Origin: a virus
Taxonomy: Duplodnaviria > Heunggongvirae > Uroviricota > Caudoviricetes
Length of the DNA: 5,747 bases
IMG/VR virus record: IMGVR_UViG_2671180577_000020
Direction: 5' to 3' (one strand)
Shown here: positions 1 through 4,733 of the stretch, in pieces
How the letters are laid out: every line of letters begins with the position of its first letter
Position numbering within the stretch: the stretch's first letter is position 1
Made by a program: the position numbers and the translations under genes
The notes under the pieces: generated by a model
The model's database searches: none
Told to the model about the DNA's origin: nothing
Seen by the model: the letters and a program-made list of their open reading frames with translations, nothing else

Positions 1-102
1 GTGAACTTTAAAAAGATGAGTGCTGAACTTATTCGGGCAATGGCATTTGCCATTCGTATTGTGGCCATTGCTGTTCTGGTCTGGGCAATCCGTTGGTGGT
101 GA
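1..102 (+). CDS. 3' end of an upstream gene (partial, start lies outside the window); possibly the endolysin by synteny, but the hydrophobic C-terminus is atypical
   Basis: Frame 1 is open from base 1 to TGA at 100-102, 2 nt before the Rz ATG at 104. Translation ends ...[25 protein letters not shown], a hydrophobic segment. It does not end like lambda R as I recall it. Product not identifiable from 33 codons. Confidence 0.4.
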
Positions 103-103
103 A

Positions 104-598
104 ATGAACCGCGTTCTGTGTGTGGTCATCATTGCTCTGCTGGTGGCCTGTGGTGCGCTTAGTCTGGGGCTGAATCATTACCGCGATAACGCCATCACTT
201 ACAAAGCGCAGCGCGATAAAAAAGCCAGTGAACTGAAGCTGGCGAACGCAACCATTACTGATATGCAGGTGCGCCAGCGCGATGTTGCTGCGCTCGATGC
301 AAAATACTCGAGGGAATTAGCCGATGCGAGAGCTGAAAATGAAACTCTGCGTGCTGATGTTGCCGCTGGTCGTAAGCGCCTGCGGATCAACGCCACCTGC
401 TCCGGTACCGTGCGTGAAGCCACCGGCACCTCCGGCGTGGATAATGCAACCGGCCCCCGACTGGCAGACACCGCTGAACGGGATTATTTCATCCTCAGAG
501 AACGGTTGATGACAATGCAGAAGCAGCTGGAAGGGGCGCAGGAATATATCCGCACTCAGTGCACTAAGCTGGCTTTTTATTATCCGGAGGATATATGA
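104..598 (+). CDS. Rz: Rz-type i-spanin (inner-membrane spanin subunit)
   Basis: Protein from the ATG at 104 ([39 protein letters not shown]...VAALDAKY...VAAGRKRL...[11 protein letters not shown]...[12 protein letters not shown]) is near-collinear with lambda Rz as I recall it: N-terminal TM helix, then a coiled-coil periplasmic domain. The track ORF starts at 20, but homology begins at the ATG at 104, which sits just after the upstream stop with GGTGGTGA as a weak SD. Confidence 0.9.
324..509 (+). CDS. Rz1: Rz1-type o-spanin (outer-membrane lipoprotein spanin subunit), embedded in the +1 frame of Rz
   Basis: 61 aa, [61 protein letters not shown]. Signal peptide plus lipobox (LVVSAC), proline-rich mature part, and the conserved [20 protein letters not shown] block of lambda Rz1. 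GAGGGA lies 8 nt upstream of the ATG. It lies entirely inside Rz in another frame, the classic arrangement. Confidence 0.85.
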
Positions 599-819
599 AG
601 AAATTACTGGTAACCGTAAAGCCTTTTCAGGGAACAATTCTGTTCCGTATTTTGCAGCGTGGTCGTGTTCTTGTTGAAGGTTCGTTCAGTGGTAAATGTA
701 CGCAATTACACTCCCGGACCTTTCAGGTGAATGCCACGAATGAAGAGCTAACCGTTGAGTGTACGATGAATGCCGCTAAATGCCGCATGGTATCCGCTGC
801 ATTACAGCCAGTGTGTTGA
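595..819 (+). CDS. hypothetical small protein (74 aa), translationally coupled to Rz; function unknown
   Basis: Its ATG at 595-597 overlaps the Rz stop at 596-598 (ATATGA), with GGAGGA 6-11 nt upstream. Same strand as the late operon. No signal peptide or TM; three Cys in the C-terminal third. No family recognised. Confidence 0.5.
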
Positions 820-1094
820 GCGACCTTATTATCCATGCGCGGTATTGTCGCCGTATTCCCGCATTAACAGAGACCGCAGCCCGACCGGGAGACTCCTCTT
901 CGCGAGTGTGCGGGGATAATCAAAAACGATACACACCGGGGTTTACCGCGTTAACGGAGCGCGGCGTTGCCCCTCATAGTCGCCTGTCCGGTGCGATGGT
1001 GGAAGAAGCCGGACGATGTGTTACCTCGCAAGCCCTGTTATGTGTCTGATTTGTGATTTAAGTCGGATAATTGTCGTTGCCATCAAGCAGAGGA

Positions 1095-1137
1095 TTGATG
1101 ACCGACAGGGTGGCATTGTTAGAATAAGACTTATTCT
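1095..1137 (+). promoter_or_regulatory. candidate sigma70 promoter with an overlapping palindromic operator-like site upstream of the TonB-CTD lipoprotein gene
   Basis: TTGATG (1095-1100) and TAGAAT (1120-1125) with a 19 nt spacer, longer than optimal. Overlapping the -10 is the dyad AGAATAAG-A-CTTATTCT (1121-1137), 8 bp arms. An AT-rich GATAAT-type tract at 1064-1082 (GATAATTGTCGTTGCCATC) is loosely Fur-box-like. Pattern-based only. Confidence 0.3.
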
Positions 1138-1151
1138 TATCTGTGCCGGGA

Positions 1152-1484
1152 ATGAAAATGAAAAGAAATCTTCCGTTAATTATTTTGTTGTCTTCTCTGG
1201 TTATGGGCTGTACGCAACATAAAACAGATATGCCCCGACAGTTGGTTAAGGCATTACCACAATATCCGGCCTATGCAGCGGCAAATTATATAAAGGGACG
1301 GGTTGATGTGAAGTTTGATATTGGTGCTGATGGTACTGTCACCCGAATTGAGTTTATCCGTTCAGAGCCGCACCATCTGTTTGATGAGCAGGTTGTAAAG
1401 GCGATGGCAAAATGGCGATTTGAGAAGGACAGGCCGCGTAAAGGCGTGAAGAAAACGTTTATCTTTAGTCCTTCTGCACCCTGA
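1152..1484 (+). CDS. lipoprotein with a TonB C-terminal domain (TonB-CTD-like, lipid-anchored); accessory (moron) gene
   Basis: MKMKRNLPLIILLSSLVMGC-TQHK is a signal peptide with lipobox (VMGC) and Thr at +2. The mature part (PQYPAYAAANYIKGRVDVKFDIGADGTVTRIEFIRSEPHHLFDEQVVKAMAKWRFEKDRP) carries the hallmark TonB C-terminal motif (P.YP..A...EG.V.V.F.V..DG.V..V.......FD..V..A...W.F). Start is ambiguous: GTG 1143, ATG 1152 or ATG 1158; 1152 chosen. Stop TGA at 1482-1484. Confidence 0.8.
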   Translation: MKMKRNLPLIILLSSLVMGCTQHKTDMPRQLVKALPQYPAYAAANYIKGRVDVKFDIGADGTVTRIEFIRSEPHHLFDEQVVKAMAKWRFEKDRPRKGVKKTFIFSPSAP

Positions 1485-1615
1485 TTATTTCATCAGAAAT
1501 TAATTATCACTCTGTTGTTATTCTGTACATTCCGGCTGGGTAAGTCTTGTTCCGCCGGATATGAAGATGAAATATTGTTGGAGGACAGTGGGTGCCTGCT
1601 CCTGTAACCGAACGT

Positions 1616-1816
1616 TCATTTCTCGTTATTTGTCATGCTGGCCGGACGCAGATGCGTTGCATCTGTTGCCAGCCTTCTCCTGCAGGCTTCAATAACCCAC
1701 GCTGAAAAGTTACCGGACCCTTTATGCTCAAGGGCGATGTTGATCTGTTCAATCATGTGATTGGGGAAACGGATATTGCGGGTTGTGGTTCTGCGGGTCC
1801 GGTTTTTCGATGACAT
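1616..1816 (-). CDS. small ribbon-helix-helix-like protein resembling the YlcI/YnfO (DUF3950) family of lambdoid prophages; antisense to the late operon
   Basis: Minus-strand ORF of 66 aa from the ATG at 1816-1814: MSSKNRTRRTTTRNIRFPNHMIEQINIALEHKGSGNFSAWVIEACRRRLATDATHLRPASMTNNEK. Strong SD (TAAAGGAAATAAAT-ATG). The track ORF extends 20 codons upstream, but the internal ATG has the RBS and matches the family N-terminus as I remember it. The family sits just upstream of the terminase region in E. coli cryptic prophages, as here. Family recall is from memory, not a search. Confidence 0.75.
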   Translation of the reverse strand: MSSKNRTRRTTTRNIRFPNHMIEQINIALEHKGSGNFSAWVIEACRRRLATDATHLRPASMTNNEK

Positions 1817-1857
1817 ATTTATTTCCTTTACTGATTGCCATATGACGGGGATTTTAC

Positions 1858-2223
1858 ATGGCTGAGCTTCGTACACTCCAGAGCAGAATCAAAACTCTGA
1901 ACACCCGACGGGTGAATATTCTGAAGGGGGAACAGCGTCGTGTCAGTGGCAGTGCACGTGTTTCCCTCAAGCGTCATATCTGGCTCAGGGATGCCGGGCA
2001 GTGCTGTCTCTGTGGTCGTGTGGTTGACCTCTGTGACAGTGAACTCGATCACCGCATTGCACTTCAGTTCGGTGGTGGTAATGAGGAGACGAATCTCTGG
2101 ACGCTCTGTACCGAATGCCATCGCCAGAAGTCAGTCAGTGAAACGGCGAGTGGTATGCCGGACCCGACGCTGCCGGAGGTGTCCGGAGGTCATGGCAGGG
2201 CAGACGATATCATCGGACTGTGA
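1858..2223 (+). CDS. HNH endonuclease (phage packaging-associated HNH, HK97 gp74-like)
   Basis: 121 aa with the canonical HNH/zinc-finger signature: CxxC (CCLCGR) ... DHRIALQFGGGNEETNLWTLCTECHRQK (D-H ... N ... C..C-H). Sits immediately upstream of the cos-like region and the terminase genes, the conserved position for HNH packaging cofactors. Confidence 0.9.
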   Translation: MAELRTLQSRIKTLNTRRVNILKGEQRRVSGSARVSLKRHIWLRDAGQCCLCGRVVDLCDSELDHRIALQFGGGNEETNLWTLCTECHRQKSVSETASGMPDPTLPEVSGGHGRADDIIGL

Positions 2224-2282
2224 TCCGCCCCGGGGGGGGATCATCCGGCGAAAAAAACGATCGCCCCGGACACCGCCCCCCG
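2224..2282. other. GC-rich dyad-symmetric element, candidate cosN (terminase nicking site)
   Basis: CCGCCCC-GGGGGGGG-ATC (G8 at 2232-2239) ... GATCGCCCCGG ... CACCGCCCCCCG (C6 at 2276-2281). Imperfect inverted repeat CCGGGGGGGGATC / GATCGCCCCGG centred near 2250, between the HNH stop and the TerS start, about 260 bp upstream of TerS. Positional analogy to lambda cosN; the ends are not proven. Confidence 0.3.
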
Positions 2283-2312
2283 TCTCATGCAGAGAAAAAA
2301 TTCCCGTTTCAG

Positions 2313-2440
2313 GCCAGTTAACATGTTAACTGGCTGTTCGGCCTTTTTTCTGTTTTTATCTTTATTATTCAGTTTGTTGTGCGAAAAAAATGTTAACTGG
2401 CTTTTTCAGCAAATGTTAACCAGGCAGCAGTTAACATTTG
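2313..2440. repeat. array of five TGTTAAC/GTTAACA motifs including a perfect 22-bp palindrome, separated by an AT-rich phased T-tract; candidate cosB-like terminase small-subunit binding sites
   Basis: Perfect palindrome GCCAGTTAACATGTTAACTGGC at 2313-2334. AAAAAAATGTTAACTGGC at 2384-2401. Inverted pair AAATGTTAAC (2411-2420) / GTTAACATTT (2430-2439) with a 9 bp spacer. AT-rich tract 2341-2390 (TTTTTTCTGTTTTTATCTTTATTATTC...) could be an IHF or intrinsic bend site. The layout resembles lambda cosB (R sites flanking I1). Confidence 0.45.
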
Positions 2441-2511
2441 CGGCATGAGACGCCGGGAAAAATGGGCTGAACCATACCCGGCTGAGTGCGTTATGGACCC
2501 GGGAGGAGGCT

Positions 2512-3075
2512 GTGCTGACAACGCAAAAACGAAAATTTGCGCTGGCGCTCATGTCCGGGAAAAACAAAACAGCGTCAGCCCTTGCCGCCGGTTATTCGGC
2601 GAAGACAGCCAGGGTTAAAGGCTCGCAGCTGGCAAAAGATCCGGAGGTGCTTGCGTTTATAGCCCGTAAACAGTGCGAGACGGTGGAGGTGGATGAGGTT
2701 CCTGTTTACCGGCAGAAAAAATCAGAGCCGGAGGATAAACCCCGTCGCCGTGAGGCGGCTGCAATACCACAGCCGGACGAAACAAATCCGGAGATGCCAC
2801 CGCCCGTGGTGATATCTCCTGGTATTGAGTATATGGAGGACGGTCTTCCCGATCCGGTGAAAGCGATGGGGCGTCTTCTGGTGGAGAACATTAATACCGA
2901 CCCCAGGCTGGCGCTGGATGCGGCTTATAAGCTGGCGCAGTTCACGCACCACAAAAAAGGGGATGCCGGTAAAAAATCGGCAAAAGGTGACGCGGCGAAA
3001 AAAGCGGCTAACCGTTTTGCGGTGCCACCACCACCCCGCCTGGTGGTGAATAATGATAATGAGGGCAACGGATGA
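2512..3075 (+). CDS. terminase small subunit (TerS; Terminase_2/P27-like HTH type)
   Basis: 187 aa from GTG 2512, preceded by a strong SD GGGAGGAGG (2501-2509). The N-terminus QKRKFALALMSGKNKTASALAAGYSAKTARVKGSQLAKDPEV is the typical TerS HTH region; lysine-rich basic C-terminus. Stop overlaps the TerL start (ATGA at 3072-3075). Confidence 0.85.
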   Translation: MLTTQKRKFALALMSGKNKTASALAAGYSAKTARVKGSQLAKDPEVLAFIARKQCETVEVDEVPVYRQKKSEPEDKPRRREAAAIPQPDETNPEMPPPVVISPGIEYMEDGLPDPVKAMGRLLVENINTDPRLALDAAYKLAQFTHHKKGDAGKKSAKGDAAKKAANRFAVPPPPRLVVNNDNEGNG

Positions 3076-4733
3076 TACCTGTGTGGAGCACGGCATGTCC
3101 GGACTGGGCAGAGCGCCTGAAAAAGGGGCTGTCGATTATTCCGGCTCCGATTTATCCGGACCAGGCTGCACATGCACTGGCGATTTTTAAACAACTGCGG
3201 ATTGTGGATGCACCGGGTAGCCCGACATTCGGGGAGTCCTGTGCACCGTGGGTGTTTGACCTGGTGGCGGCCCTGTTTGGCTCCTACGATGCGCAGACCG
3301 GTGTTCGCCATATCAAGGAAGTGTTTATCCTTATCCCCAAGAAAAACAGTAAGTCCACGCTGGCCGCGGGGATCATGATGACGGCGCTGTTACTGAACTG
3401 GCGGCAGGCGGCGGGCTACACCATTCTGGCCCCGACCGTGGAGGTGGCGGCTAACGCCTTCAACCCTGCCAGGGATATGGTACGACGGGACGATGATCTG
3501 GATGACCTCTGTCAGGTGCAGACACATATCCGGACCATCACCCATCGGGTGACGGACACCACCCTGAAGGTGGTGGCAGCCGATCCGAATACGGTGTCCG
3601 GTATCAAGTCCGTGGGGACACTGATTGATGAACTGTGGCTGTTTGGCAAGCAGTACAAAGCGGAAGACATGCTACGTGAAGCCATCGGCGGGCTGGCTTC
3701 ACGTCCGGAAGGGTTTGTGGTGTACACAACCACCCAGTCGAATGAACCGCCTGCCGGGGTGTTCAGGCAGAAACTGCAGTACGCCCGGGATGTCCGTGAC
3801 GGCAAAATTCATGATCCGCACTTTCTGCCGGTGATATTTGAGCATCCTCCTGAAATGGTGGAAAGCGGGGCTCACCTGCTGATGGAAAACCTCGCCATGG
3901 TTAACCCGAATCTCGGTTATTCGGTGGATGAGGCCTTTCTGTACCGGGAGTATCGTAAAGCCCGGGAAGCCGGGGAAGAGACTTTCCGCGGTTTCATGTC
4001 AAAACACGCCAATGTGGAAATCGGTCTTGCCCTGCGTTCTGACCGCTGGGCGGGCGCGGATTTCTGGGAGCAGCAGGGCAGGCGCGTCAGCCTGGACGAT
4101 ATCCTGCAGCGCGCTGATGTGGTGACGGTGGGGATTGACGGCGGGGGCCTGGATGATCTGCTGGGAATGTACGTGACTGGCCGTGACAGGGAAACCCGCG
4201 AATGGCTGGGCTGGGGCCATGCCTGGGTGCATGAAACCGCGGTGGTCAGACGGAAGAGTGAGGCATCCCGGTTTCAGGATTTTGTGGCCTGTGGAGACAT
4301 GACGATTGTCCGTCGGGTCGGGGATGACACGGCGGAAGTGGCGGAGTATGTGCGTCGTATTCATGAGGCTGAGTTACTGGATCATATCGGTATTGACCCG
4401 TCAGGTGTGGGGCAGATTCTGGATTCACTGGCGGAAGCCGGGATCCCCGATGAGAGTGTGGTGGGGATAAGCCAGGGCTGGAAGCTGGGCGGGGCCATCA
4501 AAACCACCGAGCGCAAACTGGCTGAGGGAGTGCTGGTGCATGGTGGTCAGCCACTGATGGCCTGGTGCGTTGGCAATGCCCGGGTGGAGCCTAAAGGTAA
4601 CGCCATTCTTATCACCAAACAGGCCAGCGGACGGGGAAAAATTGACCCTCTGATGGCGCTCTTCAATGCGGTGTCCCTGATGTCCCTGAATCCGGAACCG
4701 AAAAAGAAAGCGTATGAGGTTTTTTTCATATAA
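3072..4733 (+). CDS. terminase large subunit (TerL; HK97/Terminase_1 family ATPase-nuclease)
   Basis: 553 aa. Deviant Walker A typical of Terminase_1 large subunits (LIPKKNSKST; compare PRKNGKS). The length and the acidic C-terminal half are compatible with a nuclease domain (inference). ATG overlaps the TerS stop (translational coupling). Ends TAA at 4731-4733. Confidence 0.93.
   Translation: MIPVWSTACPDWAERLKKGLSIIPAPIYPDQAAHALAIFKQLRIVDAPGSPTFGESCAPWVFDLVAALFGSYDAQTGVRHIKEVFILIPKKNSKSTLAAGIMMTALLLNWRQAAGYTILAPTVEVAANAFNPARDMVRRDDDLDDLCQVQTHIRTITHRVTDTTLKVVAADPNTVSGIKSVGTLIDELWLFGKQYKAEDMLREAIGGLASRPEGFVVYTTTQSNEPPAGVFRQKLQYARDVRDGKIHDPHFLPVIFEHPPEMVESGAHLLMENLAMVNPNLGYSVDEAFLYREYRKAREAGEETFRGFMSKHANVEIGLALRSDRWAGADFWEQQGRRVSLDDILQRADVVTVGIDGGGLDDLLGMYVTGRDRETREWLGWGHAWVHETAVVRRKSEASRFQDFVACGDMTIVRRVGDDTAEVAEYVRRIHEAELLDHIGIDPSGVGQILDSLAEAGIPDESVVGISQGWKLGGAIKTTERKLAEGVLVHGGQPLMAWCVGNARVEPKGNAILITKQASGRGKIDPLMALFNAVSLMSLNPEPKKKAYEVFFI

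What the first reader, a model, noticed from the sequence alone, without database searches (positions are those of the whole stretch)
595..819. Unrecognised 74-aa ORF start-stop coupled to Rz at the end of the lysis cassette
Seen in sequence: the ATG overlaps the Rz stop (ATATGA) with a GGAGGA SD, which argues for real co-translation with the spanins. The protein has no signal peptide or TM segment and I could not place it in a family. Inference: genes coupled to the end of lysis cassettes may be lysis accessory factors or moron cargo.
Basis: partly seen in the sequence, partly recalled or inferred. Interest (0 to 1): 0.4.

Follow-up and report, generated by a model that had tools for sequence, protein, structure and literature searches.

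The report
Conserved small cargo gene after Rz
The 74-codon ORF is a real, conserved phage gene of unknown function, carried as optional cargo beside the lysis genes of lambda-like prophages; its overlap with the spanin gene Rz is a recent by-product of Rz losing its own stop codon, so it is an ordinary hypothetical gene, not a demonstrated lysis factor.

Summary
ORF 595-819 exists, its ATG (595-597) overlaps the Rz stop (596-598), GGAGGA lies at 586-591, and there is no TM segment or signal peptide.

It is a genuine gene:
- It is intact in all 93 loci examined.
- pN/pS is 0.34-0.60 between diverged lineages.
- The AlphaFold model is a confident all-beta sandwich (pLDDT 89.7).
- Homologues of 71-84 aa reach down to about 26% identity.

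It is already catalogued. RefSeq lists it as hypothetical protein WP_000735655.1, it occurs in 1244 of 5426 complete E. coli genomes, and it belongs to PHROG 2571 (function unknown). It matches only the central domain of that family's 286-aa proteins.

The ATGA overlap is derived. In 69 of 91 loci Rz stops at a TAG 23 nt upstream; here that codon is CTG.

The evidence favours mobile late-operon cargo over a lysis component:
- It is absent from most Rz loci and has low GC.
- It sits next to unrelated holin, endolysin and terminase types.
- Distant members lie between Q and the holin, or among tail genes.
- It is often paired with a second small gene (PHROG 4280) that this window lacks.

The function remains unknown. 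My best guess is a cytoplasmic binding module at a phage-host or phage-phage interface.

The parts
595..819 (+). 74-aa ORF (8.2 kDa, pI 9.7): a stand-alone beta-sandwich protein belonging to PHROG 2571 (central domain only); RefSeq WP_000735655.1 'hypothetical protein'
586..591 (+). Shine-Dalgarno GGAGGA. The GGAG core at -9 to -6 is kept in most upstream variants but is weaker or shifted in some (GGGGG in L084, -11 to -8 in L093)
595..598 (+). ATGA: the ORF start codon overlapping the Rz stop codon
   Evidence: lineage-specific
569..571 (+). CTG sense codon at the position of the ancestral Rz stop (TAG in 69 of 91 related loci). Its loss extends Rz by 9 residues (LAFYYPEDI) and creates the overlap
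104..598 (+). Rz i-spanin gene (164 aa, C-terminally extended), the upstream neighbour in the late operon
324..509 (+). Rz1 o-spanin gene embedded in Rz
   Evidence: Pfam Rz1, E=1.7e-21
577..585 (+). TTATTATCC, left copy of a 9-bp direct repeat flanking the ORF cassette
   Evidence: alignment with VT2-Sakai, which lacks the ORF
826..834 (+). TTATTATCC, right copy of the 9-bp direct repeat. It lies just before the conserved non-coding block that directly follows Rz in phages lacking the ORF

Best explanation
Shown: this is a genuine protein-coding gene for a soluble, cytoplasmic, single-domain beta-sandwich protein. It is a stand-alone copy of the central domain of the 280-286-aa PHROG 2571 proteins. 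Inferred from anatomy: it is transcribed on the Q-dependent late transcript immediately after Rz/Rz1 and translated from its own Shine-Dalgarno sequence. Shown: it is optional, mobile cargo in the variable slots of the late operon of lambdoid phages, not part of the holin-endolysin-spanin machinery. The ATGA overlap with Rz is a secondary result of Rz losing its stop codon. Inferred, and the weakest step: the protein most likely works as a small stoichiometric binding module acting on a host or competing-phage component, in an anti-defence, exclusion or host-takeover type of role. In many relatives it is accompanied by a 68-aa partner protein (PHROG 4280) that this prophage lacks.
For: Real gene:
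- The ORF is intact in 93 of 93 loci.
- pN/pS is 0.34-0.60 with Fisher p from 6e-5 to 0.04 between diverged lineages.
- Within the window-type clade there is an excess of synonymous polymorphism (9 non-synonymous: 9 synonymous, binomial p=0.013).
- The AF2 model has pLDDT 89.7 and pTM 0.75, all-beta.
- A search of 1.84 billion representative proteins gave 47 homologues, mostly stand-alone proteins of 71-84 aa at 26-40% identity.

Domain relationship:
- The PHROG 2571 match covers profile positions 100-172 of 291.
- hhalign against the 286-aa protein gives 97.5% probability, E=8e-12, aligning its residues 101-169.

Cargo:
- The ORF is present in 1244 of 5426 E. coli genomes, whereas 4532 genomes match some part of window 1-1600, most of them only part of it.
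- GC is 45.8%, against 54.6% for Rz and 55-58% for the terminase genes.
- VT2-Sakai has Rz followed directly by the conserved block, without the ORF.
- The gene is found beside Nu1/GpA, Terminase_2+HNH and Terminase_4 packaging modules, and beside several holin and endolysin types.
- In L136 it lies between Q and the holin. In L137/L138 it lies after the tail tube and chaperone genes, together with the partner gene.

Derived overlap.

Conflict-type evolution: between the two E. coli clades there are 13 non-synonymous and 2 synonymous fixed differences, against 9:9 polymorphic (MK-type Fisher p=0.034).

Cytoplasmic: no TM segment or signal peptide.
Against: - In E. coli, Salmonella and Klebsiella phages the gene is nearly always just after Rz. 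This leaves room for a lysis-linked role.
- No promoter or terminator of its own was detected, so it is not a classical autonomous moron.
- Late expression is atypical for anti-defence proteins.
- The MK-type test rests on small counts and on a single sequence for one clade.
- No expression data were found.
Confidence: 0.55

Rival explanations
1. Lysis accessory factor: a small cytoplasmic regulator of lysis timing. It would bind a cytoplasmic part of the holin, or hold back lysis, by analogy with T4 RIII, and be made in fixed ratio with the spanins through translational coupling.
For: It lies immediately downstream of Rz/Rz1 in E. coli, Salmonella and Klebsiella-type lambdoid phages. It is on the same late transcript with no terminator in between. 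ATGA coupling is present in this window and in 17 of 91 relatives. T4 RIII is a precedent for a small cytoplasmic lysis regulator (own knowledge).
Against: It is absent from most lambdoid lysis cassettes, including lambda and VT2-Sakai. The overlap is derived. It is found with unrelated holins (Phage_holin_2_1, 2_3 and others), endolysins (lysozyme, a different endolysin in L114/L124 that was not family-scanned, M15 peptidase) and spanin types, so a co-evolving partner in the cassette is unlikely. Distant members sit after tail genes, or 440-800 nt away from Rz. It has no route to the periplasm.
Confidence: 0.12
2. Morphogenesis or packaging helper, or a virion-associated Ig/FN3-like module: a late protein that decorates or assists assembly of the particle.
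Confidence: 0.1
3. Decaying relic: a leftover of the two-gene cassette (PHROG 2571 + PHROG 4280) or of the 286-aa three-domain protein, still open only because it is young, with no present function.
For: The partner gene is missing here, and in E. coli it is found in only 34 of 5426 genomes against 1244 for the ORF. In L085 the partner is 5'-truncated. Window-type against P0017-type gives pN/pS 2.5, not different from neutrality (p=0.25).
Against: The ORF is intact in 93 of 93 loci, with 25 distinct DNA sequences. Within the partner-less clade there is an excess of synonymous polymorphism. No remnants of the long protein's other domains or of the partner are present in the window. Stand-alone forms of about 75 aa are the commonest architecture across the whole family.
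Confidence: 0.08

Closest known systems
PHROG 2571 long proteins (e.g. Escherichia phage PhiR46_1 XSB42772.1, 286 aa; P0061-P0069)
   Same: Homologous beta-sandwich domain (hhalign 97.5%, about 31-38% identity). Same genomic slot between Rz and the terminase. Function unknown.
   Different: The long proteins add an N-terminal helical region (1-94) and a C-terminal alpha/beta domain (199-280). The window protein is the central domain alone, starting exactly at the domain boundary, and no remnants of the other parts are present.
Enterobacteria phage mEp237 gp60 + gp61 (PHROG 2571 short form + PHROG 4280)
   Same: gp60 is an 81-aa stand-alone homologue placed after the Rz-like spanin on the late strand.
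   Different: In mEp237, Salmonella L083, L114-L125 and L138 the gene is followed 39-70 nt later by a conserved 68-73-aa partner. The window and about 97% of E. coli copies have no partner.
Lambda Bor and other 'moron' cargo between Rz and the packaging genes
   Same: Optional gene in the same variable slot. Lower GC than the neighbouring core genes. Present or absent among otherwise similar phages.
   Different: Bor is an outer-membrane lipoprotein on the opposite strand with its own promoter, expressed in lysogens. This ORF is cytoplasmic, lies on the late strand, and has no detectable promoter or terminator of its own.
T4 RIII (small cytoplasmic co-antiholin)
   Same: A small soluble cytoplasmic phage protein. 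This is the only known kind of lysis factor that an ORF without TM or signal sequence could resemble in mode of action.
   Different: No sequence or fold relationship was tested or found. RIII acts with a specific holin, whereas this family is found with many unrelated holins.
Generic small beta-sandwich / jelly-roll binding modules (CBM6/35/36, PNGase F domain, hemocyanin C-terminal domain, lambda J FNIII-A, PBSX XepA)

Membership tests
PHROG 2571 (unknown function) | Significant match to the family HMM | tested here: met
   E=1.6e-27, 97.5 bits. Distant short homologues P0088, P0093 and P0098 also match.
PHROG 2571 (unknown function) | Full-length architecture (about 286 aa: helical N-domain, beta domain, alpha/beta C-domain) | tested here: not met
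   Only profile positions 100-172 of 291 are covered. tblastn with the long proteins matches only window 598-756.
Phage lysis proteins (holin, antiholin, endolysin, spanin) | Transmembrane segment, SAR or signal sequence, or lipobox | tested here: not met
   Maximum Kyte-Doolittle 19-residue mean is 0.82; no Cys lipobox; AF2 predicts a beta-strand from residue 2.
Phage lysis proteins (holin, antiholin, endolysin, spanin) | Match to a lysis family profile | tested here: not met
   No Pfam or NCBIfam hit. The only PHROG is of unknown function.
Phage lysis proteins (holin, antiholin, endolysin, spanin) | Constant linkage to the lysis cassette across the family | tested here: not met
   It follows Rz in enterobacterial lambdoids, but lies between Q and the holin in L136 and after tail genes in L137/L138. 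It is absent from lambda and VT2-Sakai.
Phage lysis proteins (holin, antiholin, endolysin, spanin) | Effect on lysis timing or completeness | not testable with these tools
   Needs a deletion or overexpression experiment in an inducible lysogen.
Translationally coupled gene pair (Rz-ORF) | Stop/start overlap with an upstream Shine-Dalgarno sequence | tested here: met
   ATGA at 595-598, GGAGGA at 586-591.
Translationally coupled gene pair (Rz-ORF) | Overlap conserved among relatives | tested here: not met
   69 of 91 loci have Rz stopping at TAG 23 nt upstream. 17 of 91 have the read-through form.
Moron (Hendrix/Juhala sense) | Presence/absence polymorphism between related phages and atypical base composition | tested here: met
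   The ORF is in 1244 of 5426 genomes, against 4532 genomes matching some part of window 1-1600. It is an insertion of about 270 nt relative to VT2-Sakai. GC is 45.8% against 54.6%.
Moron (Hendrix/Juhala sense) | Own promoter and terminator, expression from the prophage | tested here: not met
   No sigma-70-like site upstream and no terminator downstream; site counts are not above shuffles. Expression in lysogens was not testable.
Known anti-phage defence or solved anti-defence proteins | Profile or sequence match | tested here: not met
   PADLOC gave nothing for the ORF or the long form. PDB sequences gave nothing below E=1.4.

The most novel reading that the evidence does not exclude
The PHROG 2571 beta-sandwich, alone or with its PHROG 4280 partner, could be a new family of late-expressed phage inhibitors acting at a conflict interface. 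Examples would be neutralising a host defence or a competing prophage, or protecting progeny. Episodic adaptive change between clades would fit this. The most novel variant is a new kind of soluble lysis-timing regulator in Shiga-toxin phages, which would bear on toxin release.
Probability: 0.15. Interest if true: 0.6.

Novelty: already known. Interest (0 to 1): 0.25.

Why it matters
The gene is carried by about a quarter of complete E. coli genomes, including many Shiga-toxin and O157 prophages, and sits on the transcript that also drives toxin release and lysis. Any function would therefore be of practical interest. At present, though, it is simply one more conserved hypothetical phage gene. 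This analysis contributes four things:
- The Rz overlap is removed as an argument for function.
- The protein is shown to be a stand-alone domain of a longer family.
- A frequent partner gene has been found.
- A testable shortlist of roles is given.

Tried and rejected
- Pfam, NCBIfam and PADLOC scans of the ORF, and Pfam scans of 26 family members, gave nothing.
- A PDB sequence search with the family profile gave nothing below E=1.4.
- Foldseek against BFVD gave nothing significant. The afdb50 library was unavailable.
- Remnant hypothesis: tblastn with the long proteins and with the partner found no traces elsewhere in the window.
- The alternative ORF 780-1049 (+2 frame, 89 aa) overlapping the 3' end is broken by stops and frameshifts in relatives, so it is not coding.
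- No Rfam family matches anywhere in the window.
- The 83-aa ORF upstream of the partner's Pseudomonas-phage homologue is unrelated to this family.
- JLK-2012, examined as an ORF-less comparator for the insertion junction, was uninformative because its upstream context differs.
- Literature: there were no hits for the RefSeq accession. A survey of Stx-phage lysis cassettes does not mention the gene. The prophage sRNA papers (Pas, AgvB, AsxR) concern other loci.
- Alignments A3 and A4 were too diverse for the search for related loci.

Full report
**Context.** The window is the late region of an E. coli lambdoid (Stx-type) prophage.
- Rz lies at 104-598 (Pfam Phage_lysis, E=4e-50), with Rz1 embedded at 324-509.
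- The target ORF follows at 595-819, then a 330-nt gap.
- Next come a TonB_C lipoprotein gene (1152-1484), a YlcI/YnfO gene on the minus strand, and HNH (1858-2223).
- The small terminase subunit lies at 2512-3075 and the large subunit at 3072-4733.
- The ORF is 100% identical to a locus in E. coli O157:H16 98-3133.

**Checking the observation.**
- The ORF, the ATGA start/stop overlap (595-598) and GGAGGA (586-591) are all exactly as described.
- The protein is 8.2 kDa with pI 9.7. Its most hydrophobic 19-residue window averages only 0.82 on the Kyte-Doolittle scale, and it has no lipobox. A soluble cytoplasmic location is therefore the reading the sequence supports.
- Pfam and NCBIfam give nothing.
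- The ORF is not unknown to databases, however. PGAP annotates it as hypothetical protein WP_000735655.1, and it matches PHROG 2571 (unknown function) at E=1.6e-27.
- In many of the 28 matching GenBank phage records the position is unannotated or lies under an Rz/endopeptidase feature.

**Is it a real gene?** Yes, on four lines of evidence.
- It is present in 1244 of 5426 complete E. coli genomes (1630 copies), annotated as a hypothetical protein in all the rows listed.
- In 93 loci collected from IMG/VR, NCBI and Logan assemblies it is intact every time, with 25 distinct DNA sequences.
- Between diverged lineages (59-80% protein identity) pN/pS is 0.34-0.60, with Fisher p from 6e-5 to 0.04.
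- AlphaFold2 on a 23-sequence alignment gives a confident all-beta model: pLDDT 89.7, pTM 0.75, six strands and a short helix.

An exhaustive profile search of 1.84 billion representative proteins found only 47 relatives. Most are stand-alone proteins of 71-84 aa at 26-40% identity, sharing the pattern MK.L.VT...F.V.Q.G.VL.ED..SGK...Y.R.Y.VDA.D..L.VEH.

**What it is related to.** The PHROG match covers only profile positions 100-172 of 291.
- The full-length family is a 280-286-aa protein of E. coli phages such as PhiR46_1, and it also lies between Rz and the terminase.
- hhalign places the 74-aa family on residues 101-169 of that protein, at 97.5% probability and E=8e-12.
- A low-confidence model of the long protein shows a helical N-region, the beta domain, a linker and an alpha/beta C-domain.
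- The window holds no trace of the other two domains, so the ORF is a stand-alone domain and not a visible fragment.
- PADLOC and PDB sequence searches are empty.
- Function therefore cannot be read from homology.

**The overlap with Rz is derived.** I compared the 45 nt upstream of the start codon in 91 loci.
- 69 loci have Rz ending ...QCIK* or ...QCIN* at a TAG, followed by a 23-nt spacer that carries the GGAG.
- 17 loci, including this window, have a sense codon at that position (CTG, CCG or TTG). Rz then reads on for nine codons (LAFYYPEDI) until the TGA that happens to sit in ATG-AAG.
- The ATGA is thus present in every copy and becomes a stop/start overlap only where Rz lost its own stop.
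- The overlap cannot be used as evidence of a selected coupling with the spanins. Close spacing and possible re-initiation remain true in all the post-Rz copies.

**Cargo, not cassette.**
- Relative to VT2-Sakai, the ORF with its 23-nt leader and 15-nt trailer is an insertion of about 270 nt. It lies between the Rz stop and a conserved non-coding block, and it is flanked by a 9-bp direct repeat, TTATTATCC, at 577-585 and 826-834.
- Its GC content is 45.8% (GC3 44.6%), against 54.6% for Rz and 55-58% for the terminase genes.
- It occurs with Terminase_2+HNH (this window, L088), Nu1/GpA (Salmonella L083, L085, L092) and Terminase_4 (L090) packaging modules. It also occurs with different holins, endolysins and spanins.
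- In Klebsiella-type and IMG/VR relatives it is still between the lysis and packaging genes, sometimes with other small ORFs in between.
- In L136 it lies between the Q antiterminator and DUF1327/holin. In L137/L138 it follows the tail terminator, the tail tube and DUF6246.
- No promoter or terminator of its own was detected, so in this window it should be expressed as part of the late transcript. This last point is an inference.

**A partner gene.**
- In Salmonella L083/L084, in L114-L125, in phage mEp237 (gp60/gp61) and in L137/L138, the homologue is followed 39-70 nt later by a conserved 68-73-aa gene. Its pattern is MFV..L..D.DN.GWV.GW.VVR..PWHLVGVYAT...YGSHR..SDDF, and it belongs to PHROG 4280, function unknown.
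- The pair travels together even into the tail-gene context, which suggests the two proteins work together.
- The partner is 5'-truncated in L085 and absent from the window.
- In E. coli the partner is found in only 34 of 5426 genomes, so most E. coli copies are solo.

**Evolutionary pattern.**
- Within the solo window-type clade, polymorphisms are 9 non-synonymous to 9 synonymous. This is an excess of synonymous changes (binomial p=0.013) and is consistent with constraint.
- Fixed differences from the P0017-type clade are 13 non-synonymous to 2 synonymous (MK-type Fisher p=0.034). The pairwise pN/pS is 2.5, which on its own is not significant.
- Net charge is not conserved: pI is 9.7 here and 4.8-5.7 in most relatives.
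- This is the pattern expected of an accessory protein at an interaction interface. The counts are small, however, and recombination was not modelled.

**Most likely mechanism.**
- Shown: a real, soluble, single-domain beta-sandwich protein; optional and mobile; an overlap that is secondary.
- Inferred: late co-transcription with the lysis genes and translation from its own Shine-Dalgarno sequence.
- Inferred and weakest: it acts as a small binding module on a host or competing-phage component, and in other phages it acts together with the PHROG 4280 protein.
- Rivals: a cytoplasmic lysis-timing regulator (about 0.12), a morphogenesis or virion-associated module (about 0.10), and a functionless relic (about 0.08).

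**Novelty.** The gene and its family are already catalogued as being of unknown function. Nothing here departs from the ordinary behaviour of phage accessory genes, so interest is low to moderate.

Noticed in passing
window 835-1013 (+); also L129:1501-1680 (lambda, after bor), L130:1501-1681 (VT2-Sakai, directly after Rz), L131:601-767 (ES18): A non-coding block of about 180 nt just downstream of the ORF is conserved at 75-94% identity in 398 phage records, including lambda itself. A 9-sequence alignment supports a structure of 41 pairs. It has a long hairpin (GTATCGT..TATTCCCGCAT pairing with GTGCGGGGATA..ACGATAC) and a 3' hairpin in which 5 of 8 pairs show compensatory changes. 96.4% of cells are paired, against 35-60% when partners are slid, and 0 of 500 shuffles reach the observed values. 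Conserved G-U pairs favour an RNA on the late-transcript strand. There is no Rfam match. The single-sequence fold z-score is unremarkable (-0.5). Its function is unknown.
   Followed up: partly
window 569-598: Rz carries a 9-residue C-terminal extension (LAFYYPEDI) because its ancestral TAG stop is CTG here. Sister lineages have CCG or TTG. Whether the extension affects the Rz-Rz1 interaction was not examined.
   Followed up: partly
L083:4265-4471, L114:5306-5515, L127:3239-3460 (mEp237 gp61), L138:4294-4515: A conserved 68-73-aa gene (PHROG 4280; weak sub-threshold Pfam DUF7457 hit) follows homologues of the ORF in several distant lineages, and moves with it into a tail-gene context. It is absent from the window and rare in E. 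coli, at 34 of 5426 genomes. Homologues in Pseudomonas phages are not preceded by a PHROG 2571 gene.
   Followed up: partly
window 1152-1484 (+), promoter-like site 1098-1125: A lipoprotein gene (lipobox LVMGC) with a TonB C-terminal domain (Pfam TonB_C, E=5.5e-15) and low GC (43.5%), preceded by a weak extended -10 promoter-like site. PHROGs labels the family 'Rz-like spanin' (phrog_1267), which looks like a misnomer. It may be a second cargo gene, for example one interfering with TonB-dependent uptake.
   Followed up: no
window 1-102 (+), PGAP: A very small hydrophobic ORF (28-33 aa, [28 protein letters not shown]) ends 1 nt before the Rz start codon. PGAP annotates it as a hypothetical protein and it matches phrog_4493, function unknown.
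   Followed up: no
window 577-585 and 826-834: A 9-bp direct repeat, TTATTATCC, brackets the ORF cassette. This fits gain or loss of the cassette by short-homology recombination. No locus with the exact deletion product was found.
   Followed up: partly
L130:1479-1739 (VT2-Sakai orf48), L134:1176-1421 (phi345): ORFs annotated 'Rz-like spanin' in these phage records overlie the conserved non-coding block. The corresponding frame is broken by stops and frameshifts in relatives, so these are probably mis-annotations.
   Followed up: partly
L002:3109-3420 (PhiR46_1): In the phage that carries the 286-aa long form, the gene between Rz and the long form encodes a DUF4406 / nucleoside 2-deoxyribosyltransferase-like protein (Pfam E=3.7e-34). 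This is another accessory gene in the same slot.
   Followed up: no
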